Origin: Microvirga sp.
Lineage (GTDB): Bacteria > Pseudomonadota > Alphaproteobacteria > Rhizobiales > Beijerinckiaceae
Length of the DNA: 64,000 nucleotides
Reading direction: 5' to 3'
NCBI GenBank assembly: GCA_050789065.1
Contig: JBOZRS010000045.1
Coordinates: 73,875 to 137,874 of the forward strand
How positions within the stretch are numbered: the first letter of the stretch is position 1; the number at the start of each line of letters is the position of its first letter. The notes below the pieces were generated by a model. The model was not told the DNA's origin. It searched no databases and saw nothing but the letters and a program-made list of their open reading frames with translations. This document shows, one piece after another, positions 28,382 through 41,590 of this stretch. The position numbers and the translations under genes are program-made.

Positions 28382-29737
28382 CTAGACCGCGCGGGAGCGG
28401 CGTCGCGGAGCTGATTCTGCCATATGGGCTGTCGCGACGGCTTGATAGATGGCGAGGTGGGTCGTGTAGGCGTTCTCGTCGGCTTGCTGCCGGGAGCGGG
28501 ACAGTTCTGCCAGGGACGATCCCTCGGGAAGGGTTGCTCCATTCACGATTTCGGTGATGGCACGCGCCAAGGCACCTGCACTTCCGGCCGTGAACAGAAG
28601 ATCGACGCCTGGGCTCACCTTCTCCGCCATGCCCCCGATATCGGAGCAGAGCAGCGGCCGGCCAGCCATCCTGGCCTCCTGAATGACGATCGGTGAGTTC
28701 TCCCACCAGATCGACGGAACGACGATCCAGTCGGAGGCGGTCATCAGGTTGATCACATCCTGGTTCCGGTAGGCGCCCATCGGCCGGACGACATCGCCTG
28801 TCTTTGTGAGCAGGGTCTCCAATTTCTCCCCGAATTCACCCCCACGGTAATGCTTGTTCTCTCCATGGAGGCGGATTTCAATCCTGTCCTGGACGGGTTC
28901 AGGCAGCATCGTGGCGGCCTCGAGCAGGACGTCGACGCCCTTGTAGGGATTGATCTGGCCAAAAAAGGCGAAAACGATCCGCCTGTCGGGCATGGCTGCC
29001 GCTTGTGTCCTGCGCTGTCCGGCGCTGACGGGTGCCAAGACGACTTGCCGTTGGCTCTCGCTGAGAACGTCCTGATCCATGACATTCTCGATCACGGCGA
29101 TCTTCGTCGCAGGCAGGCCCCAGGCCACGTAACGCTTCTTGAGGAACTCGCTCGGCGATACGAAATCGTCCACATGACTCAGCAGCGATTGCAGGATCGT
29201 CTGCCGTACGAAGAACTTGCCTGCGCTCATCGACGGAATGCACAGAGAGCATTCCGCCGGGGAGGACGCGTAGCAGAGTCGCTTGTCGGTCTTGATCATC
29301 TGACCGTAATTGGCGCAGATCGCTGCATATTCGTGGAACGTGAAAACCACGCGAGCGCCCGCAGCCTTGAACAGCTCGAAGATCTCGATCCCCCAATAGA
29401 TGAAGTGGTGAATGTGAACCACATCAGGCCGAGTGGCTGCGACAAGCTCCTCGACAAGCTGTTTGAGCAGATCGTAGTTCAGACTCTGGAAGGTGAAGCC
29501 GTCCACGGGCGGCGGAGCGGCGAGGATCTCGTCGGGACGTCCCCGGAAACTGCCGAAGAAGGCGCTGTGCCCAATTGCCTCGTGCTCGGCCCGGGCCACG
29601 AAGACCGCATTCTCGATGCGCGAATCGTGCTTCAAACGCTGAAACAGGGAATAGGCTGCACGCTCGGCGCCGCCTGCGCCTAGATCGGGATGTCCGTGTG
29701 AAAGAACGAGCACACGCATGGAATAATCTGCTTTCAA
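28382..29737 (-). CDS. Glycosyltransferase, GT4 (GT-B fold) family
   Basis: MRVLVLSHGHPDLGAGGAERAAY N-domain, and a C-domain with the E-x7-E-like region (WWENSPIVIQEARMAGRP). The start could be the M7 codon at 29719. Confidence 0.8.
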   Translation of the reverse strand: MKADYSMRVLVLSHGHPDLGAGGAERAAYSLFQRLKHDSRIENAVFVARAEHEAIGHSAFFGSFRGRPDEILAAPPPVDGFTFQSLNYDLLKQLVEELVAATRPDVVHIHHFIYWGIEIFELFKAAGARVVFTFHEYAAICANYGQMIKTDKRLCYASSPAECSLCIPSMSAGKFFVRQTILQSLLSHVDDFVSPSEFLKKRYVAWGLPATKIAVIENVMDQDVLSESQRQVVLAPVSAGQRRTQAAAMPDRRIVFAFFGQINPYKGVDVLLEAATMLPEPVQDRIEIRLHGENKHYRGGEFGEKLETLLTKTGDVVRPMGAYRNQDVINLMTASDWIVVPSIWWENSPIVIQEARMAGRPLLCSDIGGMAEKVSPGVDLLFTAGSAGALARAITEIVNGATLPEGSSLAELSRSRQQADENAYTTHLAIYQAVATAHMAESAPRRRSRAV

Positions 29738-29767
29738 AAGATGACTGCGGCGAGATGTGTCGAGGAA

Positions 29768-31636
29768 CTAGGCTGGCGTGCGGCTGCCGACGCGGAACAC
29801 CCGCTTCGGCGGATCGAGATCCGTGGTCCAGCGCCTGTTAAACTCGGCGCAGTTCATGTAGGTCACCATGGCCCGGACATCCGTGTCTCCCATTCTTGGA
29901 ATCGACTGACGTTCCAGATGATAGAGGCCCGGATGCACATGAATCTCGATATCCGCTCCGGCGCGACGTGCCCTCAGGCACAGATCGGCATCTTCGAAAT
30001 CGCCTCGCTCGTAGGCGAGGTCGAAGCCGTCGAGCTCGGCATAGAATTCGGCCGAGAGCGCCAGAAGGGCCGCTGTTACGGCGGGCACTTTGCGGACCGT
30101 CTCTCCGCTGTAGAACCCGAAGGGCAGCCCCTTCATGGGGTGGTCGGCGACAAAGAGGCCGTTCATGAAAGACGAACGGCGAAATTCCATGCCGATATGC
30201 TGGATGGTGTTGTCTTCATAGAGAAGCGAAAAGCCGATCACTCCTTCGGGGCGCCCTGATCGCCGGCGCTCTCGGATGGCTTCCGCCGCAGCTTTCAACG
30301 GCTGCGCATCCATGACGAGAATGTCGGAATTCATGAGGAGAAGCACATCGCCTCGTGCAGCCGCCGCCCCGATGTTGTTGGCGCCTCCAAAGCCGTAATT
30401 GCCGAGATTTTGCAGGAGCTGCGTCGGGAGCCTGATGCCCTCGCTGCGCAAGGCAAGGCCGTTGTAGATCTCAGGCCATATCCGCGAGTCGTCCACGATA
30501 AGCACCAGCTCGAAACTGTCGTCCAACACGCGTTGGAGGTGATGGACGCAGTTGAGGAAGAAGGCGTCGCCGTAGAATGGGATGATGATCGATGTCAGAG
30601 GTCTCCCCTGGTGCGGAGCGGGACCAAAGGAGAACTTCTGCGCCGCCATAGCCCCTTTCGGGGTGGAGAGCGCAGGGCGGTAGAACGCGTCGATCCCGTC
30701 TGCATCCAGCGAGCGGATATCGCCAAAGGTGGAGCGGATGATGTCGAACGCGAGACGCTCGTCCTTTTGAACGGCCTTCTCCAGGGGGCCATGGAACGTC
30801 GTCCGAGATCCGTCCAGAGATGTCTCCACGAAGTAGAGATCTTGTCTTTCGCTGCCATCGGTGGGCATCACGAAAGTGAAGCCGTGCTCGTCCGAAGCCG
30901 AGGTCAGGGCGCCTAGATTGCTCAGATGGGCATGGACATCTCTTCGAGCGTGCCGCTCAAGGGCAGGGGAGAACAACCAGCTCCGCAGATCGCCGGTGAC
31001 GACGTGAACGGCGCGATCGGCCAGATTCGCCATCCAGCCCTTGACCACGAGCCCTGTCCCTGCCGAGACGAGGTGCTCGATCCAGAATTCGTCAGGGATC
31101 TTGAGCGGCTCGCAAGCAATGGACCCTTTCAGGATAGCCGCCTGTCGGTGCTGGCCTGCCCGGTCCAGGATTTGAGCGAGCACTCCCGCCTGGCCGGATG
31201 CCACAAGTTCCTGGATGTTCGGCGTTCCGACGCAAACGCGCTTTTGAACCTGCGGTCCTTTTGCGTCACGCAGCTCGACATCGATCAGCTGGCCTGCCTT
31301 CACGGTGGAGGCGGGTTTCTGCGGAATGAGAACCGCAAAGAGCCTGGTGGGCGCGCTCTCGGAATTCGAATGCTCGTACGTGGAGGCGGCTCTGCGTCCT
31401 CGTGACGGCGTAGAGGCACTGCCCTTGCGCCCCGGTTGGAGAGGGACCGCATTGTGAGCCTGCGGGGTGGCGAGCGATGCGCTCAGCCACTGACCGAAAG
31501 GCACGGTCAGGTGCACTTCGCCGCAATCCATGATGGCCGACATGTCGCCTGCCGAGTCTCCGGCAGGGCCGCGCACCATGAGCGCAGCAGCGTCGGAAAA
31601 CACAAGGATACTTTCAATATGCCAAGGTTCACTCAA
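29768..31636 (-). CDS. Glycosyltransferase family 2 (GT-A) with an unknown N-terminal region of about 330 aa
   Basis: C-terminal half carries TSIIIPFYGD...LVLIVDDS...YGFGGANNIGAAAARGDVLLLMNSDILV (DxD-type motif). TTG start at 31636 is preceded by GAGGA. I recognise nothing in the N-terminal half. Confidence 0.8.
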   Translation of the reverse strand: MSEPWHIESILVFSDAAALMVRGPAGDSAGDMSAIMDCGEVHLTVPFGQWLSASLATPQAHNAVPLQPGRKGSASTPSRGRRAASTYEHSNSESAPTRLFAVLIPQKPASTVKAGQLIDVELRDAKGPQVQKRVCVGTPNIQELVASGQAGVLAQILDRAGQHRQAAILKGSIACEPLKIPDEFWIEHLVSAGTGLVVKGWMANLADRAVHVVTGDLRSWLFSPALERHARRDVHAHLSNLGALTSASDEHGFTFVMPTDGSERQDLYFVETSLDGSRTTFHGPLEKAVQKDERLAFDIIRSTFGDIRSLDADGIDAFYRPALSTPKGAMAAQKFSFGPAPHQGRPLTSIIIPFYGDAFFLNCVHHLQRVLDDSFELVLIVDDSRIWPEIYNGLALRSEGIRLPTQLLQNLGNYGFGGANNIGAAAARGDVLLLMNSDILVMDAQPLKAAAEAIRERRRSGRPEGVIGFSLLYEDNTIQHIGMEFRRSSFMNGLFVADHPMKGLPFGFYSGETVRKVPAVTAALLALSAEFYAELDGFDLAYERGDFEDADLCLRARRAGADIEIHVHPGLYHLERQSIPRMGDTDVRAMVTYMNCAEFNRRWTTDLDPPKRVFRVGSRTPA

Positions 31637-31838
31637 GGGAATATCCTCGATCCGCAGGATATGATCCCAGGATCTGCAGCTATTAATCTTGCTGCTCCCT
31701 CTTCAACATTGAAGGCACTTGTCCGTCAAGTTTTTGTTATGTTATCAACGATCAAATAGTGGTTTAAAAGGAGAGGCACGAGGGCGCCGAGTGGCGGCCG
31801 GAACGTACGCGATGCCGGCTCCATGTATAGGTTCGAGG

Positions 31839-32699
31839 ATGGGCAAGATTGCGATACTGGTTCTGGGCAACCAGCAAGGAGCCACGATCAGGACATTCGC
31901 CCAGACATGCGGCGCTGAGCGTTTCAATTTTTACGTTCATCTCGATGCGAGGCGGGACCTGGAAGCATATTTCGGACCGGACCCAATGCCTTCGCATGTG
32001 CGGGCTATCGAGGAACGCTTTCCCATATATTGGGGCGGGTTCAACATGATCCGCGCGACAGAGGCATTGGCCTCACGCGCCTCCGCCGACCCGGACAATG
32101 AAGTCTTCGCTCTCGTCTCGGACGATTCCTTTCCCCTGCTTTCTCCTGATCGTTTGTACGATGCGATCATGACGGAGCCCCTCAGGATCGATACATGGCG
32201 AGCGCAGGATAATCAGAAGACAATTGATCGCTACGCCCACTTCTTCCATTTCGACAGCCTTCACGGCCATGCACGGCATCTTGAGCCCGAGCAGCGGTTC
32301 ATCCGCTTGCAGGACTTCCAAGTCTACGAGCGCCTGCCGCGACTGATGGAGCGTGGCAAGTACCCGATCACGCTTCACTCCGGGAGCCAGTGGTGGATCA
32401 TGCCGCGGCGGATCCTGAGCGAATGCCTGGCCCAGCTTTCCCAGAATCTTCATCTGCGGGAATCGTTCGAGTTCTCCGCGATTCCGGACGAACTTGCATT
32501 TCAGACGCTTGTCAGGGCGATCGTGCCTGCCGACGTGAAGGTGCCGCCGTCGGCCATGTGCTATGACTTCTCGAAAGCCCCGAAGCCGTTCGTCTATTCC
32601 AGTCTCGATGAACTCGATCCCAAGCTCACGACAGGAAAGCTCTTCATCAGGAAGGTCAAGCACGACACCGCTTTTCTGGAGGCGCTTCTGGCGCGGTAG
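31839..32699 (+). CDS. GT14 / Core-2-I-branching ('Branch' domain)-like glycosyltransferase
   Basis: Three family-like motifs in the right order: LVSDDSFPL, YWGGFNMIRATEAL, SGSQWWIMPRRIL. Start ambiguous (31719 TTG, 31812 or 31839 ATG). Confidence 0.6.
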   Translation: MGKIAILVLGNQQGATIRTFAQTCGAERFNFYVHLDARRDLEAYFGPDPMPSHVRAIEERFPIYWGGFNMIRATEALASRASADPDNEVFALVSDDSFPLLSPDRLYDAIMTEPLRIDTWRAQDNQKTIDRYAHFFHFDSLHGHARHLEPEQRFIRLQDFQVYERLPRLMERGKYPITLHSGSQWWIMPRRILSECLAQLSQNLHLRESFEFSAIPDELAFQTLVRAIVPADVKVPPSAMCYDFSKAPKPFVYSSLDELDPKLTTGKLFIRKVKHDTAFLEALLAR

Positions 32700-32705
32700 A
32701 GATTG

Positions 32706-33545
32706 ATGAAGACTGATCCCATCAAATTTCTCGAGAATAGATTCGGACGAAGCGCACGCTTTCGCTTCATGCCCAATGGCGGCAATCTCGGCGACAACCT
32801 GATTGCAGCAGCGACCATCCAACGTCTCGACCGAAGCGGACTTCGTTGGGAGTTCATGCGCGGGGGGAAGGAGACGGTTTCGAATGAGGATGTCCTCATT
32901 TACGGGGGAGGGGGCAGCCTCGTCGACCTTTATCGGGGAGGGATCGATTGCGTTCGCTTTCTCCAGAGCCTGGGGCGACCTGTCGTGGTCCTCCCGCAGA
33001 CGGTTCGCGGGCACCAGGACTTTTGGGAAGCATGTCTACCCCTCACTCTTTTCTGCAGAGATCAGGTCTCTTTCGATTATGCATCCCGTTACAAGCAGAT
33101 CGAGGTTCTGGCTGCCGATGATATGGCAACGCACCTTGATATGGACGATCCGCTCTTTCACCCGATCGTGACATATCACAAGCACATGACGGCTCGGGAT
33201 GAGATGGCCGGGCGCAGTCTGAATGCGTTCAGGAGAGACGGCGAATCGAGCGCCTCCGATCTGGCGGCAAAGGGCTCTGTCGATCTATCGGAATTGTCGT
33301 TTCCAAGGCTCAAGGACAAGACCGACATATATGCGTCCGCTGTTCTCTTCCTTATGTCAGCAGCAGGACATCGGCTCGTTCGCACCGACCGGCTGCATGT
33401 CAGTGTCGCGGCCAGTTTGGTGGGTGCCGAAGTCGAATTGTTCGACAACAACTACGGAAAGAACGGAGATGTGTTTCGTTTTACACTGAGAGATCGCTTT
33501 CCTAAGATCATTTATCATGGCTATAATTTTCGACAAACGTCGTGA
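32706..33545 (+). CDS. Polysaccharide pyruvyl transferase family protein
   Basis: N-terminal GGNLGDNLIAAAT (the GNxGD motif of CsaB/WcaK/ExoV-type enzymes) and central YGGGGSL. Starts 7 nt after the GT14-like stop. Confidence 0.6.
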   Translation: MKTDPIKFLENRFGRSARFRFMPNGGNLGDNLIAAATIQRLDRSGLRWEFMRGGKETVSNEDVLIYGGGGSLVDLYRGGIDCVRFLQSLGRPVVVLPQTVRGHQDFWEACLPLTLFCRDQVSFDYASRYKQIEVLAADDMATHLDMDDPLFHPIVTYHKHMTARDEMAGRSLNAFRRDGESSASDLAAKGSVDLSELSFPRLKDKTDIYASAVLFLMSAAGHRLVRTDRLHVSVAASLVGAEVELFDNNYGKNGDVFRFTLRDRFPKIIYHGYNFRQTS

Positions 33546-33560
33546 ATGATGCGCGGGCCT

Positions 33561-33660
33561 ATCTGATAAATAAATAACAGTATACTTAGATATAATACTT
33601 TAATTTATATGAGATAGGCATCTTTAAAGATGATTCTAAATTAATTTATATTACCCTTTT
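33561..33660 (+). promoter_or_regulatory. Extremely AT-rich promoter/operator region upstream of the RTX-T1SS operon
   Basis: 19 G+C in 100 nt by hand count. Perfect 14-bp palindrome CATCTTTAAAGATG (33619-33632) flanked about 20 bp each side by direct repeats TAATTTATAT (33601-33610, 33642-33651). TATAAT at 33591-33596. Confidence 0.6.
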
Positions 33661-33794
33661 GGGTTGCAAGCGGCTGTTGCTCCAGCGTCACAGGTTCGGG
33701 GATCGTTCAAACAGGGCTTGCAATTGTCGCAAGCAACGTGATAACAGATAAAAATAACCAAAACAGACCACGCAATGTGATAAAGGGGGCTTTA

Positions 33795-34799: not shown

Positions 34800-36836
34800 A
34801 TGTCTGACGGGACAAATAGCGGGTTGTCTTTCCGGTCTGAGGCCGGGGAGGCAACCCTTCTCTTTGTGATGCCGCACTCGGCCGATACGGCTTATGTCTG
34901 GTGTCCTGCGGCCAAGCTGCCGTCAATTGCCGCCATAGCGGCCAATGGGCAGCCTTGCGAGGTTCTCGCGCGAAGGAAGCTGATACAGCCCGGCAATACC
35001 CTCGAAATACTGCTTGTGAGGAGCCGTGAACTCCAGGACGGCGCTCTCTGCGAGTTGCATTTCGATAAGAACGAGCGCTCGCCACTCGCGACAGTGGCTC
35101 GTCTTGCCCGGTGGGACAGCCCCCACACGAGACGCGTCCTGCGCATTGTGGCCGATCGCTTCAACGTCGATCAAGATCCGCCTCGTACACTTGAGCGGTA
35201 CCTCGCCTTTATCAGCCTGTGGCAGATTCCAGGACGCGTTCAGGCTCTTCTGCCTGAAGGGGTCGTGTTCGAGGCCGAGATCGCTAGCGAAGGCAGTCTC
35301 AATGCCTACGTCATGACGATGCAGGGGGTGCGGCGAATAACATTGACCCCTCTTTCGGCAGGACCGGGCAGGCGATTGTTCTGGCTCCCAGGTTACCACC
35401 CTCAGCAGTTCTATCTCGAGGCGGATGCGGAATTGACCAGAGTCGTTCTGGACAATACCGGGAATCCATACCGGCCGGCATCGGAAAACGACCTCGGCCT
35501 CGTCGAATCTCTTCATGGCCTGAACGTCTGTTCTGAAGCCGCCACGGCCTGGGTCAGGAAGCTTTGCCCGCGTCAGGCCGAATTGCGCATCGACGACACG
35601 GCTTACCGCATTCTGGGTTCCGGCGATCTGCCATCCGGTCGCACCGTCATCTTCATCGAGGTGAGCGGGCGCGCCTATGCCCACGTGGAGTTCAGGCTTC
35701 ATTCTTTTGGAGTGGAAGAGTCCGCGCAGATCAACGTAACAGCCCGTGAAACGGACGGATCGCCGAACGATCGTCCTTGTACGCAGATCCTCGTCGAAGC
35801 TCCCGACATGAGGCAGACCGGCGCTTACCGGCTTAGCTGGGTTCACGACGGCGAGCCGCAATACCTTTGGGTCAGAGGGAGCGAGATCGCCGAGCGGCCG
35901 ATGCAAGCTCTGGTCAGGGATTTCGCGCCTCTCGCATTTCTCGATACCGATTTATTTGGCAACGTCTTTCACCCCATTGCGACGGCAAGTTCCCGTTCCG
36001 CCGAGGCGGCGCTCGTTCATAGGGAGGAGTTCGGAGGCAGGTCCCGAGACGCTTGCGCTGAACTCCTTATCCTAGCGGACGGTGATGTCGAGGCAGTGCA
36101 TAGGACGTTGATCGCTCTCTCGCTCTCGAGCCGTGAAACTGCGTTTGATGTGCACATTTGCTTTTTCGACAGGTCGTTGATTGCTCTTCTTACAAGCAAA
36201 GCAAAGCAATGGTCAGCGCTCTACGGATTGAGACTAACCGTTAACTGCTTTAACGCCTGGGTGCCGGAGTCTTTCTTAGTACGTTTCAATTTCGGCGCGC
36301 CACTTCCCCGTGTCATCTGCCGAGCAGGTTTCATTCCCTGTCGAGTTGATTGGCTTGAGTGCACCTTGAAAGATTTGGAACTGAGTTGCGGGATTCTGCT
36401 GGGGAGTGCATCGAGTAGGACGGACTCGCGCGCACGTGAAATCAGCCGTACCGCGCTGCGGAAATTAATTGGCGAAGTCGAATCCGGCACGAACTACGGC
36501 ATAACATCTGCTGCTCTGCTGCCACATCTTGGAAGTATTGATCCAGAAGTCCAATTCCACGGCTTCGAATCGTATGTTCTGGCCCTGGCGTTGTCTCTCT
36601 CCGAAGGTGAAAAAGTCCGAAGCTCACAGGGCCTCCGAATGTCGGATAGTGCCGGACGGCCTGAAACGGAAACATTCGAAGCCAGGCTGGATCGGTATAG
36701 CCTGCAGGAATTGTGCAGACGCTGGGCACCTGTGAAGGCAAGGCAGACGAAGGGTGCCAACCCGCTGTCGCCTGAGAAAGCCGCTTCCCGCAATCACACA
36801 CAAAGATTAGGCAATGAGCAACCCCATCTATCATGA
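34800..36836 (+). CDS. Hypothetical 678-aa cytoplasmic protein between the RTX substrate gene and the T1SS ABC gene
   Basis: Starts 4 nt after the RTX stop and overlaps the ABC gene by 23 nt. No signal peptide, TM or RTX repeats, and no family recognised. Residues around ELLILADGD...FDVHICFFD loosely resemble a GT-A beta-alpha-beta start, but no DxD motif. Confidence 0.65.
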   Translation: MSDGTNSGLSFRSEAGEATLLFVMPHSADTAYVWCPAAKLPSIAAIAANGQPCEVLARRKLIQPGNTLEILLVRSRELQDGALCELHFDKNERSPLATVARLARWDSPHTRRVLRIVADRFNVDQDPPRTLERYLAFISLWQIPGRVQALLPEGVVFEAEIASEGSLNAYVMTMQGVRRITLTPLSAGPGRRLFWLPGYHPQQFYLEADAELTRVVLDNTGNPYRPASENDLGLVESLHGLNVCSEAATAWVRKLCPRQAELRIDDTAYRILGSGDLPSGRTVIFIEVSGRAYAHVEFRLHSFGVEESAQINVTARETDGSPNDRPCTQILVEAPDMRQTGAYRLSWVHDGEPQYLWVRGSEIAERPMQALVRDFAPLAFLDTDLFGNVFHPIATASSRSAEAALVHREEFGGRSRDACAELLILADGDVEAVHRTLIALSLSSRETAFDVHICFFDRSLIALLTSKAKQWSALYGLRLTVNCFNAWVPESFLVRFNFGAPLPRVICRAGFIPCRVDWLECTLKDLELSCGILLGSASSRTDSRAREISRTALRKLIGEVESGTNYGITSAALLPHLGSIDPEVQFHGFESYVLALALSLSEGEKVRSSQGLRMSDSAGRPETETFEARLDRYSLQELCRRWAPVKARQTKGANPLSPEKAASRNHTQRLGNEQPHLS

Positions 36837-38523
36837 CGCCGACGTAAAGGCCGCGCTCGGAGCATGCAGGAAGCATTTTGCTTATGCGGTTGTCTTCGAT
36901 GCGTTTCTCAACGTTCTCATGCTGGCCTATCCGGTTTATCTCTACCAGATCTATGACCGCGTCATTCCGGGCAAGAGTTGGGAAACTCTCGTCGCTCTGC
37001 TGATTGGGCTGACGATCGCGGTCTCGGCAAAAGCTGTGTTTCAGTGGGTGAAGGGAACCCTCCTCGTGAGGGCATCCGCACGCATTGAGCGAAGGCTTGC
37101 AGACAGGCTGTTTCGGATCATCATCCGACGCTCAGCGGAAGGTGCAGGGGTGAGGGATGCGCAGCTCATGCGAGACCTCGACAGCTATCGGCAATTCGTG
37201 ACCGGAAAGGGTGCTCTTGCGGCGCTGGATCTACCGTGGGGCTTCCTGTTCCTGGGAGTGATCATGGTCGTCGACCCGCTGATCGGCACTGTTGCGACCA
37301 TCGCCATGATGATCTCCGGAGCCGCGACCATCGCCAATACGCTCGCAACCAAACGCGCCTTGGTCAGGGCGAATGTCATCGGCAACTCGTCCCAGCAATT
37401 CGGCGATTCAGCCGCCCGGGCGGCTGAGGCGGTCGTAGGCCTGGGCATGCTGAATGGAGTGGTCAGGCGCTGGCGCCGTGAGCGTGACAAGGCGATCCGA
37501 GAGCAATTCATCGCCAGCGGCCGAGGCGTTCTGTTCTCCTCATTCCTGAGCTCGGCGCGCATGTTGATGCAGGGGGCAATCCTCGCCATCGGCGCGGTCC
37601 AGGTCATCAATAATCACATCCCGGTCGGAGCCGTCTTTGCCTCGATCATGGTGTTCCAGTATGCCATGAAGCCCATCGATCAACTCGTGGCGGCGTGGGA
37701 CGAATATCCCCCCGTCAGAGAGGCGATGCGGCGGATCGATGCTGCCCTGTCCCGCGCCGCCGAACCGGCGATCAATCTCCACCTGCCTAAGCCTGCCGGT
37801 ACGATCACGTGTCAGGACTTGGTCTATGTTCCGCCTGGTTCCGACAGGGCCGTGTTGAGGCGCATCAGTTTCACCTTGCAGGCCGGAGAAACACTGGGCC
37901 TTCTGGGGTTGAACGGTTCGGGCAAGACCACGCTGGCGCGGATTCTCACCGGCAGTCTTCGGCCGACAAGCGGTTCCGTTCGGGTCGACGGGGCCGAAAT
38001 CGACCAATGGGACAACGATCAGTTCTGTTCATTCATCGGGTACCTGCCGCAGAACGTGAGTCTTCTGCCGGGCACTGTTGCTGACAATATCGGGCGGTTC
38101 GGCCGCTTCTCCGATGAGGACATCGTCGAAGCTGCCAGGAAGGCGCGGGTCCATGATCTGATCCTGCGTATGCCGAAAGGATACGAAACGCCGCTTGACG
38201 ACATGAATTTCTCAGGCGGGCAGCGGCAGCTGATCGCACTGGCCCGAGCCATTGTGGGCCAACCCTCCTTTGTGGTTTTGGACGAACCCAATTCCAACCT
38301 GGACGGTCCCGGCGAGGAGGCCCTGATCGCGTGCGTTCAAGCGCTCAAGCATGACGGCTGTACGGTCATCCTGATCACGCACCGGCCGAATCTCGTTCAT
38401 CATCTCGATCACGCTGCCGTTCTGCGTGACGGATCGATCTCAAACTACGGCACGACATCGGAGATCTTCCAGCAACTGGGTCGCCCGACCGTGGTCAAGA
38501 ACACAGGCAACGCCCATGCATAG
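36814..38523 (+). CDS. Type I secretion system ABC permease/ATPase (PrtD/AprD/HasD type, no C39 or CLD domain)
   Basis: 569 aa. N-terminal 6-TM domain, Walker A GLNGSGKTT, signature FSGGQRQ, Walker B FVVLDEPNSNLD, H-loop ITHR. Confidence 0.9.
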   Translation: MSNPIYHDADVKAALGACRKHFAYAVVFDAFLNVLMLAYPVYLYQIYDRVIPGKSWETLVALLIGLTIAVSAKAVFQWVKGTLLVRASARIERRLADRLFRIIIRRSAEGAGVRDAQLMRDLDSYRQFVTGKGALAALDLPWGFLFLGVIMVVDPLIGTVATIAMMISGAATIANTLATKRALVRANVIGNSSQQFGDSAARAAEAVVGLGMLNGVVRRWRRERDKAIREQFIASGRGVLFSSFLSSARMLMQGAILAIGAVQVINNHIPVGAVFASIMVFQYAMKPIDQLVAAWDEYPPVREAMRRIDAALSRAAEPAINLHLPKPAGTITCQDLVYVPPGSDRAVLRRISFTLQAGETLGLLGLNGSGKTTLARILTGSLRPTSGSVRVDGAEIDQWDNDQFCSFIGYLPQNVSLLPGTVADNIGRFGRFSDEDIVEAARKARVHDLILRMPKGYETPLDDMNFSGGQRQLIALARAIVGQPSFVVLDEPNSNLDGPGEEALIACVQALKHDGCTVILITHRPNLVHHLDHAAVLRDGSISNYGTTSEIFQQLGRPTVVKNTGNAHA

Positions 38524-39847
38524 CCACTCACAATCCGCCGTTGCCGTCGAACCTGCTCAGCCGTTCCCGGACACCGCTTCCGGACCAATCATCGTAGGCG
38601 GCCTTACTGCCATTGCGCTTTTGCTTAGCGTGACGGGTTGGTCGTCCGTCATGTCGGTGTCGAGCGCAGCCATAACAACGGGGCGGGTGACCGTCGAAGG
38701 GAACCGCAAGGCCGTTCAGCATCGGGATGGAGGCCCTGTCGGTGCCGTTTTCGTGCGCGAAGGGCAACTTGTACAGCATGGCCAGAAACTCGTTCAGCTT
38801 GAACTACCTGATGTGAAAGCCGAAGTCGAAGTCCTGAAGCATGGCAGTGATGCCGCTCTGTTCAGAGCCGCGCGACTGCAGGCTGAGCGGGCGGATTCCA
38901 GCACGTTTGAATTCCCACTTCCGTTCGTCGGCCGCTCTCAGGATCCGCAGCTTCAAATGCTGTTCCAACAGGAGAAGGCACTGCTCGAGGCGCGCCGTGC
39001 AGCCTATCTCGGACAGGTCAGCCTCCTCAATCAGCAAATTGGGGGCAGCAGCCGTCAGATTGCGGCCCTCGAAGGGCGTCTGAAAGCTGCACAGACGCAG
39101 CTCGACAGCATTGAGGACGAGTTGAACTCCCTTCGCCCTCTGCAGGAGAAGGGCCTGATCGCCCGCCCCAGAACCTTGTCGCTTGAGCGGGCAGCCGCAT
39201 CCCTCCGAGGCGATATTGAAGCGGTTCTCGGACTGAGCGCCGCGGAACATGACAAGATCCGTGCTGCCGAGATTCAAATTGGGCAGCTGACAAAAGAGCG
39301 GGTGGAACTCATCGCACGGGAGAGTGCCGACAATGACGCAAGGCTCGCAGAAATCGAGCCGCGTTTGGTTTCTGCCGAACGGCGCCTGGCGAGTAGTGTC
39401 ATTTTGGCTCCCGAAGCCGGATACGTCTATGGCCTGACGGTGTTCGGACCAGGCGCCACCCTCGTTCCCGGCCAAACGGCGCTGGAGATCGTTCCGGTCA
39501 ACGATCAGATGGTGGTCTCGATCGACATTGAGCCGACGGACGTGAAGCGCGTTCATCCGGGGCAGATTGCGAGCATCAATCTGCTTCCTTACCGCCAGCG
39601 TTATCAGAAGGCGATCACGGGAACGCTCGAGAAGGTGTCTGCGGATCTTTTCGAGGACAAAGCAACAGGGAAGGCCTATTACAAGGGGACGGTCCGTGTG
39701 AGCTCGAACGACCTGAAAGCTGCCGGAGCGGAGCTGACTCCCGGCATGCCGGCGCAGGTGACCGTCGAGACCGGAAAGCGCACCATCCTCGCGTATTTCC
39801 TCGATCCGATCCTCAAGATCTACGATTTCGCTCTAAAGGAACAATAG
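38516..39847 (+). CDS. Type I secretion membrane fusion protein (HlyD family)
   Basis: ATG 38516 overlaps the ABC stop. One N-terminal TM (IIVGGLTAIALLLSVTGW), a long coiled-coil, barrel domains, and C-terminal RTILAYFLDPILK. Confidence 0.9.
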   Translation: MHSHSQSAVAVEPAQPFPDTASGPIIVGGLTAIALLLSVTGWSSVMSVSSAAITTGRVTVEGNRKAVQHRDGGPVGAVFVREGQLVQHGQKLVQLELPDVKAEVEVLKHGSDAALFRAARLQAERADSSTFEFPLPFVGRSQDPQLQMLFQQEKALLEARRAAYLGQVSLLNQQIGGSSRQIAALEGRLKAAQTQLDSIEDELNSLRPLQEKGLIARPRTLSLERAAASLRGDIEAVLGLSAAEHDKIRAAEIQIGQLTKERVELIARESADNDARLAEIEPRLVSAERRLASSVILAPEAGYVYGLTVFGPGATLVPGQTALEIVPVNDQMVVSIDIEPTDVKRVHPGQIASINLLPYRQRYQKAITGTLEKVSADLFEDKATGKAYYKGTVRVSSNDLKAAGAELTPGMPAQVTVETGKRTILAYFLDPILKIYDFALKEQ

Positions 39848-39855
39848 GGGGCATC

Positions 39856-40119
39856 ATGTCGACACCACGAACAGCACAAGCAGGCGAGGTGGCCTCGGGC
39901 AGGCCGGTCAACCTGGAAGGGGACAGCCCGGAGCTCGTTGCATTCGCACTGCTTCGCTATCTTGCCCAGCTTGAGCAGGGCCAGGCAGGCATTTCGTTCG
40001 ACAGAGAATGGCTTCTCGATGCGTATACGGATTGCCTGCAGGCCGTGAAAGGTCAGCGGGGGGGCGGAAGCCGGGCGGGGAAAGCCACCTCGACGAACAT
40101 CGCGAAAGGGCGGAGCTAG
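39856..40119 (+). CDS. Hypothetical 87-aa protein, last gene of the T1SS operon
   Basis: ATG lies 9 nt after the MFP stop with TAGGGGG 5 nt upstream. Predicted helical core (PELVAFALLRYLAQLEQ...WLLDAYTDCLQAV) and a basic Gly-rich tail. No family recognised. Confidence 0.55.
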   Translation: MSTPRTAQAGEVASGRPVNLEGDSPELVAFALLRYLAQLEQGQAGISFDREWLLDAYTDCLQAVKGQRGGGSRAGKATSTNIAKGRS

Positions 40120-40152: not shown

Positions 40153-40181
40153 ATCAGCTCCGATGCTCCTTCTCCGGGCTG

Positions 40182-40251
40182 GCGCATCGTTCGGGGCGGA
40201 AAACCGGATCCACTTTTCGCTGACGCGGACCTCCGGTTCCGAACGATGCGC
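40182..40251. repeat. 70-bp palindromic element with 13-bp terminal inverted repeat (GCGCATCGTTCGG / CCGAACGATGCGC)
   Basis: Seen directly. The loop contains a second CCACTTTT motif (ATCCACTTTTCGC). Confidence 0.6.
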
Positions 40252-40332
40252 TAAGTGGCTGGGCACAAAGCGACGGATGATTCCGTATAATGTGCAAGCC
40301 TCCGTCGGTGACATGACGGGTTTCATGCGCAA

Positions 40333-40362
40333 GGGACGCTTATCGGCGTCCCTTTTGCATTT
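40333..40362 (+). terminator. Rho-independent terminator, probable end of the T1SS operon transcript
   Basis: Stem GGGACGC / GCGTCCC, loop TTATCG, followed by TTTTGCATTT. Abuts the stop of the convergent GT4 gene. Confidence 0.65.
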
Positions 40363-41590
40363 AAGGAAGAAGCTCTCGCAGCAGATCCTCATAGGCCGGG
40401 AGAGATACCGTTTTGAAGTCGAACTGCTCGGTTGCCGTTGTGCGGGCACCGGCAGAGATCCGCTCGCGCAATCCGCGATCGTCGATGAGTTCGACGATCC
40501 TGTCGGCGAGCTCCCTTGCGCCGAAGAAATCGGTCAGGAGCCCGTTCTGCCCATCCCGGATGATCTCCTCGACGGGCGGCGTTGCAGAACCGACAATGGC
40601 GCAGCCGCAGGCCATGGCATCGAGAAGAGACCATGACAGGACGAACGGATAAGTCAGATAGACATGCACCGTTGAGAGACGGAACAGGTTGAGCAGGTCG
40701 CCATAGGGAAGCGTTCCAAGGAAGTGCAGGCGCTCGGGATCGACGGCATTTCCGACCTCCGCAAGAAGCGCCTCCTTCCAGGTCCCCCCCTTGGGCGGAT
40801 TGCGCCCGTAGCTTGCAGGCTCTTTACCGACGACGACTACCTGGACCTCTGGGTGCATTTTCTGCAGATGCGGGACAGCGCGCATGAAAGTGTGAAAACC
40901 CCGGTACGGCTCCAGCGATCGCGCCACATAGGTCACGACGGGTTGTCCAGTATGGAGCGTCAGCCCGGACGGCATCGTGATGGGCGAAGCAGCACCGGGA
41001 GACGCCACAGAGGTATCGATCCCCTCGTGAATAATGCGGATCCGTCGAGACAAGGCTCCAGGAAAGGTTTCAGCCTGCCACCGTGTCGACGAGACCAGCG
41101 CGTCCGACAGCGCGGCCGCTTGCAGCGTCGGGAGATTGCGCAGGGAAACATAGTCCAGATCGGCGGGTGACGCGGGAAACTCGGGATCGAACTCCAGTTC
41201 GCTTCCGCTGTTGCGGTAACCATATTCCATATGAGAGACGATCTTCGTGTCCGGAAACACGTCCCTGAGGAAGATCGCTTCTCCCCATCCGGGATGAACG
41301 AAGCAGATGTCGGGCGTGAAGCCTCGCTGCTTCAATTCAACGAGCCGCCAACGCGCCAGGTCACCGCGTCGTACCTGCTCCGAGAAGAACGTCAGAGGCG
41401 GAAAGAGATCTGCATTGCGGTCGGGCCCGGAACTGTAGCCCACATATTCCACCGGGCCGGGATCGAATCCGAAAGGCGATTTTTGCCCCAGCGCCACCAC
41501 TCGAAATTCTTCCCGACGGCCAAGCTCGCGAGACAGGAGCTTGTATTGCCCGGGAAAATTCTGGTGGATGAACAGGACGTTGATGGTCAT
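40361..41590 (-). CDS. Glycosyltransferase, GT4 (GT-B fold) family
   Basis: Start MTINVLFIHQNFPGQYKLL (ATG 41590). C-domain with HFLGTLPYGDL...VHVYLTYPFVLSWSLLDAMACGCAIVGS, typical of group-1 glycosyltransferases. Confidence 0.8.
   Translation of the reverse strand: MTINVLFIHQNFPGQYKLLSRELGRREEFRVVALGQKSPFGFDPGPVEYVGYSSGPDRNADLFPPLTFFSEQVRRGDLARWRLVELKQRGFTPDICFVHPGWGEAIFLRDVFPDTKIVSHMEYGYRNSGSELEFDPEFPASPADLDYVSLRNLPTLQAAALSDALVSSTRWQAETFPGALSRRIRIIHEGIDTSVASPGAASPITMPSGLTLHTGQPVVTYVARSLEPYRGFHTFMRAVPHLQKMHPEVQVVVVGKEPASYGRNPPKGGTWKEALLAEVGNAVDPERLHFLGTLPYGDLLNLFRLSTVHVYLTYPFVLSWSLLDAMACGCAIVGSATPPVEEIIRDGQNGLLTDFFGARELADRIVELIDDRGLRERISAGARTTATEQFDFKTVSLPAYEDLLRELLP

What the first reader, a model, noticed from the sequence alone, without database searches (positions are those of the whole stretch)
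28382..41590. Lower-GC island joining an RTX/type I secretion operon to five glycan-modifying enzymes, with no glycan export or priming genes
Eleven genes lie between two core-type genes, rimO and a CMD-family peroxidase-like gene. Their composition departs from the flanks: hand counts give about 47-50% G+C at 31921-31980 and 36181-36300, against about 62% in mfd.

Content:
- GT4 and an extended GT2, transcribed leftward
- a GT14/Branch-like enzyme and a pyruvyl transferase, transcribed rightward
- a tightly coupled operon of a 333-aa RTX protein, a 678-aa orphan, a PrtD-type ABC, a HlyD-type MFP and an 87-aa orphan
- a convergent second GT4

A polysaccharide locus would normally need a priming transferase, Wzx/Wzy or an ABC-2 exporter, Wza/Wzc and nucleotide-sugar genes. 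None of these is in the window. The only exporter in the island is the T1SS.

This suggests the glycosyltransferases act on one of two things:
- the RTX protein itself. As far as I know, cytoplasmic glycosylation of a T1SS substrate would be unusual.
- a pre-existing surface glycan that anchors or receives the RTX protein, as with the S-layer RsaA and O-antigen in Caulobacter, or PrsDE and the EPS glycanases in Rhizobium.

I do not recognise this exact gene combination as a described system.
Basis: partly seen in the sequence, partly recalled or inferred. Interest (0 to 1): 0.85.

Follow-up and report, generated by a model that had tools for sequence, protein, structure and literature searches.

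The report
Secretion-coupled exopolysaccharide gene island, galactoglucan type
This accessory gene block in a Microvirga soil bacterium is a distant relative of the Sinorhizobium galactoglucan (EPS II) locus, where making a sugar polymer needs a small calcium-binding secreted protein and its type I secretion pump; the 678-residue "orphan" is a degenerate glycosyltransferase-like protein always found between that protein's gene and the pump's.

Summary
Ten genes, not eleven, lie between rimO and a CMD-family gene, and every family call holds. G+C is only modestly lower: 58.6% against 63.5% upstream and 60.8% downstream.

The claim that this is not a described system does not hold. Seven of the ten genes have homologues in the Sinorhizobium exp/wg (EPS II) cluster:
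- RTX to ExpE1
- PrtD-type ABC to ExpD1
- HlyD-type adaptor to ExpD2
- extended GT2 to ExpE2
- first GT4 to ExpE7/E4
- second GT4 (PF12000) to ExpC
- the 678-aa orphan to ExpE6 (remote; hhalign 94.6%)

The exp cluster also carries pyruvyl transferases and lacks Wzx/Wzy. There, ExpE1 and its secretion system are needed for polymer production by a mechanism still unresolved.

New here is a conserved cassette: RTX, orphan, ABC, adaptor, small conserved protein. It appeared in 10 of 10 sampled contexts, next to varying sets of soluble glycosyltransferases and with no conventional exporter found in the flanks examined.

Best reading: a secretion-coupled exopolysaccharide locus, a new variant of a known but poorly understood kind. 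RTX glycosylation is not excluded but has no positive support. Interest is moderate.

The parts
28382..29737 (-). GT4 glycosyltransferase (GT4a), soluble; homologue of ExpE7/ExpE4. The start codon is uncertain: the public gene call is 445 aa, ending at 29719.
   Evidence: Pfam Glycos_transf_1 E 5e-21 and Glyco_transf_4 E 3e-15. 38% identity to ExpE7 and 37% to ExpE4. 59-63% identity to sister Microvirga-type loci. No transmembrane segment.
29768..31636 (-). 622-aa extended GT2 (GT2x). An N-terminal domain of about 340 aa with no family hit (not modelled) is followed by a GT2 domain (aa 343-608) that has N-S-D at the DxD position. ExpE2-like.
   Evidence: Pfam GT2 E 2.5e-8. 33% identity to the ExpE2 GT2 domain. 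Collinear but weak hhalign match to the ExpE6 family: E 3.5e-4 over 400 columns. 49-55% identity to sister loci.
31719..32699 (+). Branch/GT14-like glycosyltransferase (the public call starts at 31791). Found only in this version of the locus; low G+C (56.8%).
   Evidence: Pfam Branch, 56 bits. Absent from sister loci. Only 22-27% identical relatives in the plasmid collection. G+C.
32703..33545 (+). Small (280-aa) polysaccharide pyruvyl transferase. Found only in this version of the locus; lowest G+C in the island (54.1%).
   Evidence: Pfam PF04230, 37 bits against a cut-off of 25. No BLAST match to ExpA4/A5 or to the 395-aa pyruvyl transferase of the VF16 locus. Best plasmid relatives are 32% identical.
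33546..33794 (.). AT-rich intergenic region (37.8% G+C) upstream of the RTX operon; presumed promoter or regulatory region.
   Evidence: Composition and sequence. Only loose conservation of AT-rich words with sister loci. No Rfam family.
33795..34796 (+). 333-aa RTX calcium-binding protein. It has a conserved N-terminal domain of about 110 aa, nonapeptide repeats, and a C-terminal secretion region ending in FFHF. ExpE1/WgeA-like over the repeat and C-terminal part.
   Evidence: HemolysinCabind E 4e-48. 37% identity to ExpE1. Alignment of 7 orthologues shows the N-domain is shared within the cassette family but absent from ExpE1. A Shine-Dalgarno sequence lies just upstream of the ATG at 33795.
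34800..36836 (+). Orf678. A soluble protein with three beta-sandwich domains (about aa 20-102, 141-218, 260-359) followed by a GT-A (GT2)-like domain (about aa 400-620). R-A-G replaces DxD. Remote homologue of ExpE6/WgeF.
   Evidence: No Pfam hit in any of 35 family members. 58 cluster representatives among 1.84 billion proteins. AlphaFold2 model pLDDT 86, pTM 0.80. Foldseek returns only Ig-like hits. hhalign to the ExpE6 family: 94.6%, E 7e-8 over 262 columns. ExpE6 family to ExpE2: 97.6%, E 3e-12. Family HMM hits the ExpE6 region and the ExpE2 GT2 domain.
36814..38523 (+). PrtD-type type I secretion ABC permease/ATPase, with no N-terminal C39-like domain.
   Evidence: TIGR01842, 543 bits against a cut-off of 510. 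66-69% identity to sister loci and 35% to ExpD1. 35-41% identity to many generic PrtD-type ABCs.
38516..39847 (+). [quoted passage not shown]
   Evidence: TIGR01843, 317 bits against a cut-off of 209. 27% identity to ExpD2 and 64-68% to sister loci. One N-terminal transmembrane segment.
39856..40119 (+). Orf87, a small soluble protein with a highly conserved core (VNLxGDSPELVAFALLRYLAQLEQ...FDREWLLDAY). Function unknown. Part of the cassette.
   Evidence: No Pfam hit. 64-73% identity to Microvirga-type orthologues. Still 53% identical in the distant locus L009, where the Orf678 homologue is only about 24% identical. An 82-aa gene sits at the same position in L016.
40361..41629 (-). Convergent GT4 with a PF12000 N-terminal domain (GT4b); ExpC-like. 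It is the glycosyltransferase most consistently attached to the cassette.
   Evidence: PF12000 E 4.5e-42. 37% identity to the GT4 next to expG in L003. 63-68% identity to sister loci and 46% in L007. Same position in L002, L004, L006, L007, L008, L010 and L012.

Best explanation
The island is an accessory exopolysaccharide locus of the galactoglucan (EPS II, exp/wg) type, carried by a Microvirga species.

**Proposed mechanism**
1. Four soluble glycosyltransferases (two GT4, one extended GT2, one GT14-like) and a pyruvyl transferase assemble a pyruvylated heteropolysaccharide at the cytoplasmic face. They draw on housekeeping nucleotide sugars and phosphoenolpyruvate.
2. The operon RTX - Orf678 - ABC - adaptor - Orf87 supplies the dedicated output stage.
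3. The small RTX protein is secreted through the PrtD-type ABC, the HlyD adaptor and a TolC encoded elsewhere.
4. As with ExpE1/ExpD1/ExpD2 in Sinorhizobium, polymer production depends on that secretion.
5. Orf678 is a cytoplasmic, probably non-catalytic GT2-like protein with three beta-sandwich domains. I infer that it couples the glycan-building enzymes, or the finished glycan, to the ABC transporter.

**Shown here**
- The gene families.
- Homology of seven genes to the exp cluster.
- Conservation of the cassette.
- No transmembrane segment predicted in any island protein except the ABC and the adaptor, and no conventional exporter found in the window or in the flanks examined.
- The accessory status of the block.

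**Inferred**
- That the product is a free exopolysaccharide.
- That the RTX protein and the secretion system are required for it.
- The role of Orf678.
- Whether the ABC/adaptor/TolC channel carries the glycan itself.
For: **Family calls:**

**Homology to the S. medicae exp cluster (L003):**
- GT4a to ExpE7 (38%) and ExpE4 (37%).
- GT2x to ExpE2 (33%).
- RTX to ExpE1 (37%).
- ABC to ExpD1 (35%).
- Adaptor to ExpD2 (27%).
- GT4b to ExpC (37%).
- Orf678 family to ExpE6 family: hhalign 94.6%, E 7e-8, 262 collinear columns.
- ExpE6 is itself a paralogue of ExpE2 (97.6%).
- Both clusters carry PS_pyruv_trans genes.
- Sister Microvirga loci also carry rmlA/B/C (plus rfbD in VF16), as does exp.

**Literature:**
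- EPS II is pyruvylated.
- expD1/expD2 mutants make no EPS II.
- ExpE1 is a secreted calcium-binding protein required for EPS II synthesis or secretion, and it depends on TolC.
- The exp cluster is not a Wzx/Wzy pathway.

**Conservation:**
- The 8-gene core is present in L002, L004, L010 and L012, and in part in L006.
- The RTX - Orf678-family - ABC order holds in 10 of 10 sampled contexts. These include members only about 20% identical to Orf678.
- Their neighbouring glycan genes differ: PF12000 GT4, Capsule_synth/RgpF, GT-D, GT99, GT61, a GT2-GT4 fusion and sulfotransferases.
- A divergent ExpE6-family locus again carries ABC, adaptor, small ORFs, GT2, GT4 and a pyruvyl transferase.

**Topology and context:**
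- Only the ABC and the adaptor are membrane proteins.
- No conventional exporter was found in the window or in the examined parts of sister-locus flanks.
Against: - Identities to exp proteins are low (27-38%).
- The ABC is no closer to ExpD1 than to many generic PrtD-type exporters at 35-41% identity. The secretion-system homology is therefore family-level only.
- The Orf678-ExpE6 link rests on profile comparison, covers only about 40% of the protein, and is below 95% probability.
- The GT-A assignment of Orf678 is indirect. It goes by way of ExpE6 and ExpE2. The direct comparison with ExpE2 gave 35% probability, and the fold search returned only Ig-like hits.
- The window lacks rml genes, ExpG, ExpA1-A6, ExpE3, ExpE5 and ExpE8. 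It adds a GT14-like enzyme, a conserved RTX N-domain and Orf87, none of which are in exp.
- Only 64 kb of the genome was visible. A priming transferase, flippase, polymerase or exporter could be encoded elsewhere.
- No experimental data exist for any Microvirga locus.
- The role of ExpE1 in the model system is itself unknown.
Confidence: 0.6

Rival explanations
1. Matrix-protein model. The glycosyltransferases make an exopolysaccharide that is primed, flipped or exported by machinery encoded elsewhere in the genome. The RTX protein is an extracellular calcium-dependent matrix or lectin protein that binds or processes that polymer outside the cell. Precedents are CabA (cabABC beside the brp locus) in Vibrio vulnificus and the PrsDE substrates RapA2/RapD/PlyA/PlyB in Rhizobium leguminosarum. 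In this model the secretion system carries protein only.
For: - CabA is a secreted RTX matrix protein whose CabB/CabC secretion genes lie next to an EPS locus.
- RapD is a PrsDE-secreted calcium-binding protein that binds EPS and influences polymer length.
- The window's ABC resembles generic protein exporters as much as it resembles ExpD1.
- The RTX protein has a conserved non-repeat N-domain that could bind glycan.
- The rest of the genome was not visible.
Against: - The brp locus carries its own priming enzyme, flippase, Wzc and Wza. Here none was found in the window or in the examined flanks of about eight related loci.
- A cytoplasmic GT2-like protein is wedged between the RTX and ABC genes in 10 of 10 contexts. 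That is hard to explain for a purely extracellular partner.
- In the homologous exp system, secretion mutants make no EPS II at all, rather than making a mis-assembled matrix.
Confidence: 0.2
2. Glycoprotein model. The soluble glycosyltransferases and the pyruvyl transferase modify the RTX protein itself in the cytoplasm. Orf678 presents the substrate, and the glycosylated protein leaves through the type I system. In the extreme form, the RTX protein is the covalent primer of the polysaccharide.
For: - All enzymes are soluble and no lipid-carrier priming transferase is present.
- Orf678 is translationally coupled to the RTX gene.
- The RTX N-domain co-varies with the cassette.
- The requirement of ExpE1 for EPS II is unexplained. 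A primer role would account for it and for the missing priming and export genes.
Against: - A full-text search found no report of a glycosylated type I secretion RTX substrate.
- EPS II is described as a free high- and low-molecular-weight polysaccharide.
- ExpE1 lacks the N-domain.
- Distant loci carry enzymes typical of polymer synthesis: a GT2-GT4 fusion, Capsule_synth/RgpF, GT99 and sulfotransferases.
- Type I substrates are thought to travel unfolded through a narrow channel (established knowledge), so a bulky glycan on the polypeptide would be unusual.
Confidence: 0.1
3. Chance juxtaposition or an S-layer-type system. Either the RTX/type I operon and the glycosyltransferases are functionally independent neighbours in a variable region, or the RTX protein is a surface-layer protein anchored to a glycan, as RsaA is to O-antigen.
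For: - The rimO flank is a variable hot spot that collects polysaccharide genes.
- Branch and the small pyruvyl transferase are recent additions with different composition.
Against: - The linkage persists across loci as distant as about 20% identity in Orf678, and across chromosome and plasmid locations.
- The RTX protein is only 333 aa and mostly repeats. That is far smaller than known type I-secreted S-layer proteins (own knowledge).
Confidence: 0.05

Closest known systems
Sinorhizobium meliloti/medicae galactoglucan (EPS II) exp / wg cluster: ExpE1/WgeA, ExpD1/WgdA, ExpD2/WgdB, ExpC, ExpE2, ExpE4, ExpE6, ExpE7, ExpA4/A5
   Same: - A PrtD-type ABC, a HlyD adaptor and a small RTX-like secreted protein are embedded among soluble GT4 and extended GT2 enzymes, a degenerate GT2-like protein (ExpE6 / Orf678) and pyruvyl transferases.
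- There is no Wzx/Wzy, Wza/Wzc or priming transferase.
- Seven genes are homologous.
- Sister Microvirga loci also carry dTDP-sugar (rml) genes, as exp does.
   Different: - Identities are only 27-38%.
- Gene order differs. Here it is RTX - Orf678 - ABC - adaptor - Orf87 in one operon. In exp it is expD1 - expD2, then expE1 - E2 ... E6.
- The RTX protein has an extra conserved N-domain of about 110 aa.
- Orf87, Branch/GT14 and a short pyruvyl transferase have no exp counterpart.
- There is no ExpG (MarR), ExpA1-A3, ExpA6, ExpE3, ExpE5 or ExpE8, and no rml genes in this window.
- The host is Methylobacteriaceae, not Rhizobiaceae.
Vibrio vulnificus cabABC operon beside the brp exopolysaccharide locus
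   Same: An RTX calcium-binding protein and its dedicated ABC and adaptor are encoded next to, and co-regulated with, polysaccharide genes.
   Different: - brp is a complete Wzx/Wzy-type locus with a priming enzyme, flippase, Wzc and Wza.
- There is no GT2-like gene between the RTX and ABC genes.
- CabA is a structural matrix protein and is not reported as required for polymer synthesis.
Rhizobium leguminosarum PrsDE type I system with Rap lectins and PlyA/PlyB glycanases (and S. meliloti PrsDE-ExsH)
   Same: A PrtD-type secretion system exports calcium-binding proteins that bind or trim an acidic, pyruvylated exopolysaccharide.
   Different: - The substrates carry cadherin-like or glycanase domains that are absent here.
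- The EPS is made by a separate Wzx/Wzy pss/exo pathway.
- Loss of secretion alters polymer length, not polymer production.
ABC-transporter-dependent capsule and O-antigen pathways (KpsMT-KpsED; Wzm/Wzt)
   Same: - The polymer is completed in the cytoplasm by soluble or peripheral glycosyltransferases and then handed to an ABC exporter with a periplasmic adaptor.
- Distant cassette loci carry Capsule_synth (KpsC/S-like), RgpF and GT99 enzymes typical of these pathways.
   Different: - The ABC here is a fused PrtD-type half-transporter (TIGR01842), not an ABC-2 Wzm/KpsM plus a separate ATPase.
- An RTX protein is part of the operon.
- No KpsD/Wza-type outer-membrane component is present.

Membership tests
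Type I secretion system (PrtD/AprD subtype) | ABC permease/ATPase of the PrtD subfamily, without a C39 or C39-like N-terminal domain | tested here: met
   TIGR01842, 542.6 bits against a curated cut-off of 510.15. The match is full length (569 aa) with no N-terminal extension.
Type I secretion system (PrtD/AprD subtype) | HlyD-family periplasmic adaptor encoded next to the ABC gene | tested here: met
   TIGR01843, 317.4 bits against a cut-off of 208.65. The gene overlaps the ABC gene by 8 nt.
Type I secretion system (PrtD/AprD subtype) | Substrate with GGxGxD nonapeptide repeats and an uncleaved C-terminal signal, encoded in the operon | tested here: met
   HemolysinCabind E 4e-48 in 7 stretches. 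The conserved C-terminus ends in FFHF and is shared by 6 orthologues. Actual secretion was not tested.
Type I secretion system (PrtD/AprD subtype) | TolC-type outer-membrane factor | tested here: not met
   No OEP/TolC family hit came up in any ORF scanned across the window. It is expected elsewhere in the genome, as in Sinorhizobium. The rest of the genome could not be tested.
EPS II (galactoglucan) exp/wg-type polysaccharide locus | ExpE1/WgeA-like small RTX protein together with ExpD1/ExpD2-like exporter genes inside the glycan cluster | tested here: met
   37%, 35% and 27% identity to the L003 genes. However, the ABC is equally similar to generic PrtD-type exporters.
EPS II (galactoglucan) exp/wg-type polysaccharide locus | ExpC-like GT4 (PF12000), ExpE2-like extended GT2 and ExpE4/E7-like GT4 | tested here: met
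   E-values of 3e-81, 2e-36 and 7e-91 respectively. PF12000 E 4.5e-42.
EPS II (galactoglucan) exp/wg-type polysaccharide locus | ExpE6/WgeF-like protein | tested here: met
   Remote match only. hhalign of the Orf678 family against the ExpE6 family: 94.6%, E 7e-8, 262 columns. The family HMM hits the ExpE6 region at E 1.7e-7. No pairwise BLAST hit.
EPS II (galactoglucan) exp/wg-type polysaccharide locus | Pyruvyl transferases (ExpA4/ExpA5) | tested here: inconclusive
   Same Pfam family, PF04230. The window's enzyme is a short 280-aa form with no BLAST match to ExpA4/A5.
EPS II (galactoglucan) exp/wg-type polysaccharide locus | dTDP-glucose/rhamnose genes (ExpA7-A10) and the MarR regulator ExpG in the cluster | tested here: not met
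   Absent from the window. rmlA/B/C/D are present in sister loci L002, L004 and L006.
EPS II (galactoglucan) exp/wg-type polysaccharide locus | Absence of Wzx/Wzy, Wza/Wzc and a priming phosphoglycosyl transferase | tested here: met
   None found in the window. The exp cluster is described as non-Wzx/Wzy.
EPS II (galactoglucan) exp/wg-type polysaccharide locus | Product is a secreted polysaccharide whose production requires the RTX protein and its exporter | not testable with these tools
   Needs genetics and chemistry. Known only for Sinorhizobium.
Glycosyltransferase family 2 (GT-A fold, DxD) - applied to Orf678 | GT-A fold domain | tested here: inconclusive
   - The secondary-structure order in the AlphaFold2 model (aa 405-620) fits an alternating beta/alpha domain.
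- Homology is indirect, through ExpE6 to ExpE2.
- The direct comparison with ExpE2 gave only 35% probability.
- No Pfam GT2 hit.
- The fold search was swamped by Ig-like hits.
Glycosyltransferase family 2 (GT-A fold, DxD) - applied to Orf678 | DxD (or xSD) metal-binding motif after beta-4 | tested here: not met
   - The aligned position is R508-A509-G510. All three residues are invariant among the five closest relatives, and only G510 is invariant across the 35-member family.
- ExpE6 has A-G-S or S-A-S at this position.
- ExpE2 and GT2x have N-S-D.

The most novel reading that the evidence does not exclude
The cassette RTX - Orf678 - PrtD-type ABC - HlyD adaptor - Orf87 is a modular, general polysaccharide output machine, distinct from the Wzx/Wzy, ABC-2 and synthase routes. 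A glycan finished in the cytoplasm leaves through the ABC/adaptor/TolC channel.

In this reading the RTX protein is an obligatory co-substrate. It either gates assembly of the channel or acts as the covalent primer or carrier of the chain. The pseudo-glycosyltransferase Orf678/ExpE6 hands the glycan to the transporter.

This would explain three things:
- why ExpE1 is essential for EPS II;
- why these loci lack priming and export genes;
- why the cassette travels with interchangeable glycosyltransferase sets.
Probability: 0.2. Interest if true: 0.85.

Novelty: new variant of a known kind. Interest (0 to 1): 0.5.

Why it matters
How galactoglucan is polymerised and exported has been open since the exp cluster was sequenced in 1997, and so has the reason it needs a secreted calcium-binding protein. 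A 2026 paper still says only that ExpE1 is 'critical for synthesis or secretion'.

This window and its relatives make the question approachable by comparison:
- The arrangement is not a Sinorhizobium oddity. It is a recurring cassette in Methylobacteriaceae genomes and in unassigned metagenome contigs.
- The cassette has a minimal conserved core: the RTX protein, a GT2-like pseudo-enzyme related to ExpE6, the ABC, the adaptor and a small conserved protein.
- It sits beside varying sets of soluble glycosyltransferases.

That core is a short list of genes to delete and of protein pairs to test for interaction. The work also assigns a fold and relatives to an uncharacterised family of about 58 cluster representatives (Orf678). 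If the secretion channel turns out to carry the glycan, this would be an additional general route of bacterial polysaccharide export.

Tried and rejected
- **First structure prediction of Orf678.** With a 4-sequence alignment the model was unusable (pLDDT 51). It was redone with 35 sequences.
- **Foldseek of the good model against the PDB.** It returned only antibody and Ig-like hits at low TM-score, and said nothing about the C-terminal domain.
- **Sequence profile of the Orf678 family against PDB chains.** Nothing below E 0.3.
- **Pfam and NCBIfam on Orf678 and Orf87, and Pfam on 35 family members.** No hits.
- **hhalign of the Orf678 family against GT2x.** No match.
- **The search for related loci with the 35-sequence alignment.** It failed because the alignment is too divergent. 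With 5 sequences it found only three Microvirga genomes, and not the window's own genome.
- **Exact look-up of M. antarctica P0004.** Not on record.
- **Cluster look-up.** The organism was inferred from rimO homologues instead.
- **Becker et al. 1997 (PMC178839).** Not held.
- **Alignment of the regions upstream of the RTX gene.** Only loose AT-rich similarity.
- **Rfam scan of the island.** Empty.
- **Test for a specific affinity of the ABC to ExpD1.** Negative: generic PrtD-type exporters are equally or more similar, and the best outside hit (Ensifer plasmid, 41%) has no glycan genes nearby.
- **Idea that the block was inserted between adjacent rimO and CMD genes.** Rejected on synteny.
- **S-layer reading.** Rejected as unlikely on protein size.

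Full report
**1. What is there**

Between rimO (26785-28134, minus strand; TIGR01125, 575 bits) and a CMD-family gene (41662-42258, minus strand) I find ten genes, not eleven.
- GT4
- a 622-aa protein whose C-terminal 270 aa are a GT2 domain
- a Branch/GT14-like enzyme
- a short PS_pyruv_trans enzyme
- a 333-aa RTX protein
- a 678-aa protein with no family hit
- a PrtD-type ABC (TIGR01842, above its cut-off)
- a HlyD adaptor (TIGR01843, above its cut-off)
- an 87-aa protein with no hit
- a convergent GT4 with the PF12000 N-domain

The five genes from the RTX gene to Orf87 are separated by a 3-nt gap, a 23-nt overlap, an 8-nt overlap and an 8-nt gap. A simple hydropathy scan finds transmembrane segments only in the ABC and the adaptor.

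The other ORFs I scanned across the 64 kb are housekeeping or catabolic, for example proS, lolCD, dnaE, recG, mfd, ABC importers and a PAS kinase. None hit a priming transferase, flippase, polymerase, Wza/Wzc, ABC-2, nucleotide-sugar enzyme or TolC family.

**2. Composition and island status**

| Region | G+C | Mean GC3 |
|---|---|---|
| Island | 58.6% | 0.686 |
| Upstream flank | 63.5% | 0.804 (P = 9e-5) |
| Downstream flank | 60.8% | 0.726 (P = 0.07) |

The dip is real but small. It is deepest in the Branch gene (56.8%), the pyruvyl transferase gene (54.1%) and the 250-nt spacer before the RTX gene (37.8%).

rimO homologues place the window in the genus Microvirga, at 92-95% identity to many named species. 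In three other Microvirga genomes the isochorismatase/Bmp/ABC side of rimO is syntenic with the window. The other side is different each time:
- a MacB-type efflux operon (L013)
- a different set of polysaccharide genes in M. splendida (L014)
- a Wzc-like gene with IS110 transposases on the VF16 chromosome (L015)

None has the CMD gene there. In VF16 the homologous cluster sits on a 551-kb plasmid. The block is therefore accessory and lies at a variable hot spot. It is not a simple insertion between two otherwise adjacent core genes.

**3. The orphan and the cassette**

The 678-aa protein is rare. A word-indexed search of 5.8 billion proteins found three relatives. An exhaustive profile search of 1.84 billion cluster representatives found 58. 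None of 35 full-length members hits any Pfam family.

I looked at ten distinct genomic contexts, down to members about 20% identical. They are the window, L002, L004, L006, L007, L009, L010, L012, L016 and L017.
- In all ten the gene lies directly after an RTX gene and directly before a PrtD-type ABC gene.
- The adaptor gene follows wherever the contig reaches.
- A small conserved ORF (Orf87 family) usually comes next.
- The C-termini of the RTX proteins are alike, ending FFHF, FFIF or WFHF.
- They share an N-terminal domain of about 110 aa.

The glycan genes next to the cassette vary. The PF12000 GT4 is the most constant. Others are Capsule_synth/RgpF, GT-D-like, GT99, GT61, a GT2-GT4 fusion, sulfotransferases and a 2-epimerase.

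Within Microvirga-type loci an 8-gene core is conserved at 59-73% identity: GT2x, GT4a, RTX, Orf678, ABC, adaptor, Orf87 and GT4b. Three of these sit lower: GT2x at 49-55%, the RTX protein at 47-62%, and Orf678, the lowest, at 30-35%.

The window differs from its sisters in three ways:
- Branch and the short pyruvyl transferase take the place of a small ORF plus rmlC, rmlB and rmlA.
- The GT2x-GT4a pair is inverted.
- The window has no rml genes at all.

**4. What Orf678 is**

With the 35-sequence alignment, AlphaFold2 gives a confident model (pLDDT 86, pTM 0.80). It shows three beta-sandwich domains, each followed by helices, and then an alternating beta/alpha domain from about residue 405.

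Foldseek against the PDB returns only immunoglobulin-like hits. That confirms the tandem beta-sandwiches but hides anything about the last domain.

Evidence for a GT2-like domain comes from sequence profiles:
- The family HMM hits two places in the S. medicae exp cluster: the unannotated ExpE6 region (E 1.7e-7) and the GT2 domain of ExpE2 (E 4e-5).
- Profile-profile comparison of the Orf678 family with an ExpE6 family alignment of 26 sequences gives 94.6% probability, E 7e-8, over 262 collinear columns. These cover the last beta-sandwich and the first half of the alpha/beta domain.
- The ExpE6 family matches ExpE2 over 403 columns, including its Pfam-recognised GT2 domain (97.6%, E 3e-12).
- It also matches the window's GT2x collinearly but weakly (E 3.5e-4).

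I therefore read Orf678, ExpE6, ExpE2 and GT2x as sharing an architecture of beta-sandwich domain(s) followed by a GT-A domain.

At the DxD position the four proteins differ:

| Protein | Residues at the DxD position |
|---|---|
| GT2x, ExpE2 | N-S-D |
| ExpE6 | A-G-S or S-A-S |
| Orf678 | R-A-G |

The R-A-G triplet is invariant among the five closest Orf678 relatives. Only the glycine is invariant across the 35-member family.

Orf678 is thus probably a non-catalytic GT2 relative. This step is inferred. The direct Orf678-ExpE2 comparison is weak (35% probability).

**5. The known relative**

The GT2 domain of GT2x led to the pSymB-type plasmid of S. medicae. The annotated neighbourhood there is the exp/wg galactoglucan cluster:
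- rfbDBCA
- a glycoside hydrolase
- two pyruvyl transferases
- a large glycosyltransferase
- a DUF6212 protein
- a GT4 (ExpC)
- a MarR regulator (ExpG)
- a type I secretion ABC and adaptor (ExpD1/D2)
- a calcium-binding protein (ExpE1)
- a 749-aa GT2 (ExpE2)
- a methyltransferase
- a GT4, and further genes

Pairwise matches from the window:

| Window gene | exp gene | Identity |
|---|---|---|
| GT4a | ExpE7 / ExpE4 | 38% / 37% |
| GT2x | ExpE2 | 33% |
| RTX | ExpE1 | 37% |
| ABC | ExpD1 | 35% |
| Adaptor | ExpD2 | 27% |
| GT4b | ExpC | 37% |

With Orf678-ExpE6 added, seven of the ten genes have a counterpart. The eighth, the pyruvyl transferase, belongs to the same Pfam family as ExpA4/A5. A more distant ExpE6-family locus shows the same mixture of ABC, adaptor, small ORFs, a 736-aa GT2, GT4s and a pyruvyl transferase.

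The literature says the following:
- EPS II is a disaccharide polymer of acetylated glucose and pyruvylated galactose.
- ExpE1 is a secreted calcium-binding protein.
- ExpD1/ExpD2, and TolC, are needed for its secretion.
- The cluster is not a Wzx/Wzy pathway.
- In 2026 ExpE1 is still described only as critical for EPS II synthesis or secretion.

**6. Caveats on the relationship**

- The ABC is 35-41% identical to many generic PrtD-type exporters, and ExpD1 is not closer than the rest.
- The best outside hit, on an Ensifer plasmid, has no glycan genes nearby. The secretion-system homology is therefore at family level only.
- The specific link rests on the four glycosyltransferase-type proteins (GT4a, GT2x, GT4b and Orf678) and on the shared overall logic.
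- The window lacks many exp genes and adds its own (section 3).
- I therefore call it a new variant, not a member of the galactoglucan locus proper. Its product is unlikely to be galactoglucan itself.

**7. How it most likely works**

All the enzymes are soluble. The only membrane proteins are the ABC and the adaptor. No other exporter turned up in the window or in the examined flanks of related loci. In the homologous model system the polymer also depends on the RTX protein and its exporter.

The best-supported reading is a secretion-coupled exopolysaccharide pathway (confidence 0.6). A pyruvylated glycan is built at the cytoplasmic face, and its production or release needs the RTX/ABC/adaptor/TolC module. 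Orf678 acts as a cytoplasmic coupling factor.

Whether the channel carries the glycan itself is not settled. Distant cassette loci hold KpsC/S-like, RgpF and GT99 enzymes, which are typical of ABC-transporter-dependent glycans. That makes this reading attractive. I give this stronger, more novel version about 0.2.

Rivals:
- An extracellular matrix or lectin role for the RTX protein, with export encoded elsewhere. Precedents are CabA and RapD. Confidence 0.2.
- Glycosylation of the RTX protein. No precedent was found. Confidence 0.1.
- Unrelated neighbours, or an S-layer-type system. Confidence 0.05.

**8. Verdict**

It needs correction on the gene count, the size of the G+C dip and the synteny.
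The linkage is real, and the absence of conventional export genes is real as far as the visible sequence goes.
- The system does have a described relative, and the two specific proposals are not the most likely ones.
- It is a new variant of a known but mechanistically unresolved kind.
- Interest is moderate (0.5). What lifts it above routine is the newly delineated cassette and the assignment of the orphan to an ExpE6/GT2-related family.

Noticed in passing
window 33546-33794: A 250-nt spacer of 37.8% G+C lies in a roughly 62% G+C genome, directly upstream of the RTX operon. Only loose AT-rich words are shared with sister loci (for example TAGAAATAAT and TGATGAATCTG in VF16 and L004). It could be a promoter bound by a silencer or regulator such as MucR/Ros.
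   Followed up: partly
L013, L014, L015 (rimO neighbourhoods of three other Microvirga genomes): The side of rimO where the island sits differs in every genome. In two of them it holds other polysaccharide genes: GT4, C5-epimerase, deacetylase and acetyltransferase in one; a Wzc-like kinase with IS110 transposases in the other. It looks like a hot spot for surface-glycan gene exchange.
   Followed up: partly
L003 23650-27228 (S. medicae ml29 plasmid pMl3): ExpE6 and ExpE7 read as one uninterrupted 1192-aa ORF in this strain. The ExpE6 part has no entry in the distributed gene table. In S. meliloti the ExpE6 homologue is a separate 738-aa protein (P0185).
   Followed up: partly
window 34800-36836 versus L002, L004, L006, L010, L012: Orf678 is only 30-35% identical between Microvirga-type loci, whereas most of its neighbours are 59-73% identical (the RTX protein and GT2x are intermediate). 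Orf87 stays 53% identical even in a locus where the Orf678 homologue is about 24% identical. Evolutionary rates within one operon are very uneven.
   Followed up: no
L012 16911-18335; L002 3434-4771: M. antarctica has a serralysin-like RTX metalloprotease gene right after the cluster, which may be a second substrate. On the VF16 plasmid, a CDS annotated 'flagellin' near the cluster contains RTX-like repeats.
   Followed up: no
L010 664-1659: M. arvi has a KpsF/KdsD-like gene (SIS + CBS; arabinose-5-phosphate isomerase type) just upstream of its copy of the cluster. Together with the Capsule_synth and GT99 genes in L007 and L008, this hints at Kdo chemistry in some versions.
   Followed up: no
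window 31719-33545: The Branch/GT14-like gene and the 280-aa pyruvyl transferase gene are absent from all sister loci. They have the lowest G+C in the island. Their relatives in the plasmid collection are only 22-32% identical (the pyruvyl transferase's best matches are on Klebsiella and Citrobacter plasmids). They look like a later two-gene replacement of the rml genes.
   Followed up: partly
window 42297-43376 (-) versus 42354-43160 (+): A 359-aa ORF on the minus strand has no family hit and overlaps an enoyl-CoA hydratase gene on the plus strand (E 7.5e-53). The plus-strand gene is the real one.
   Followed up: yes
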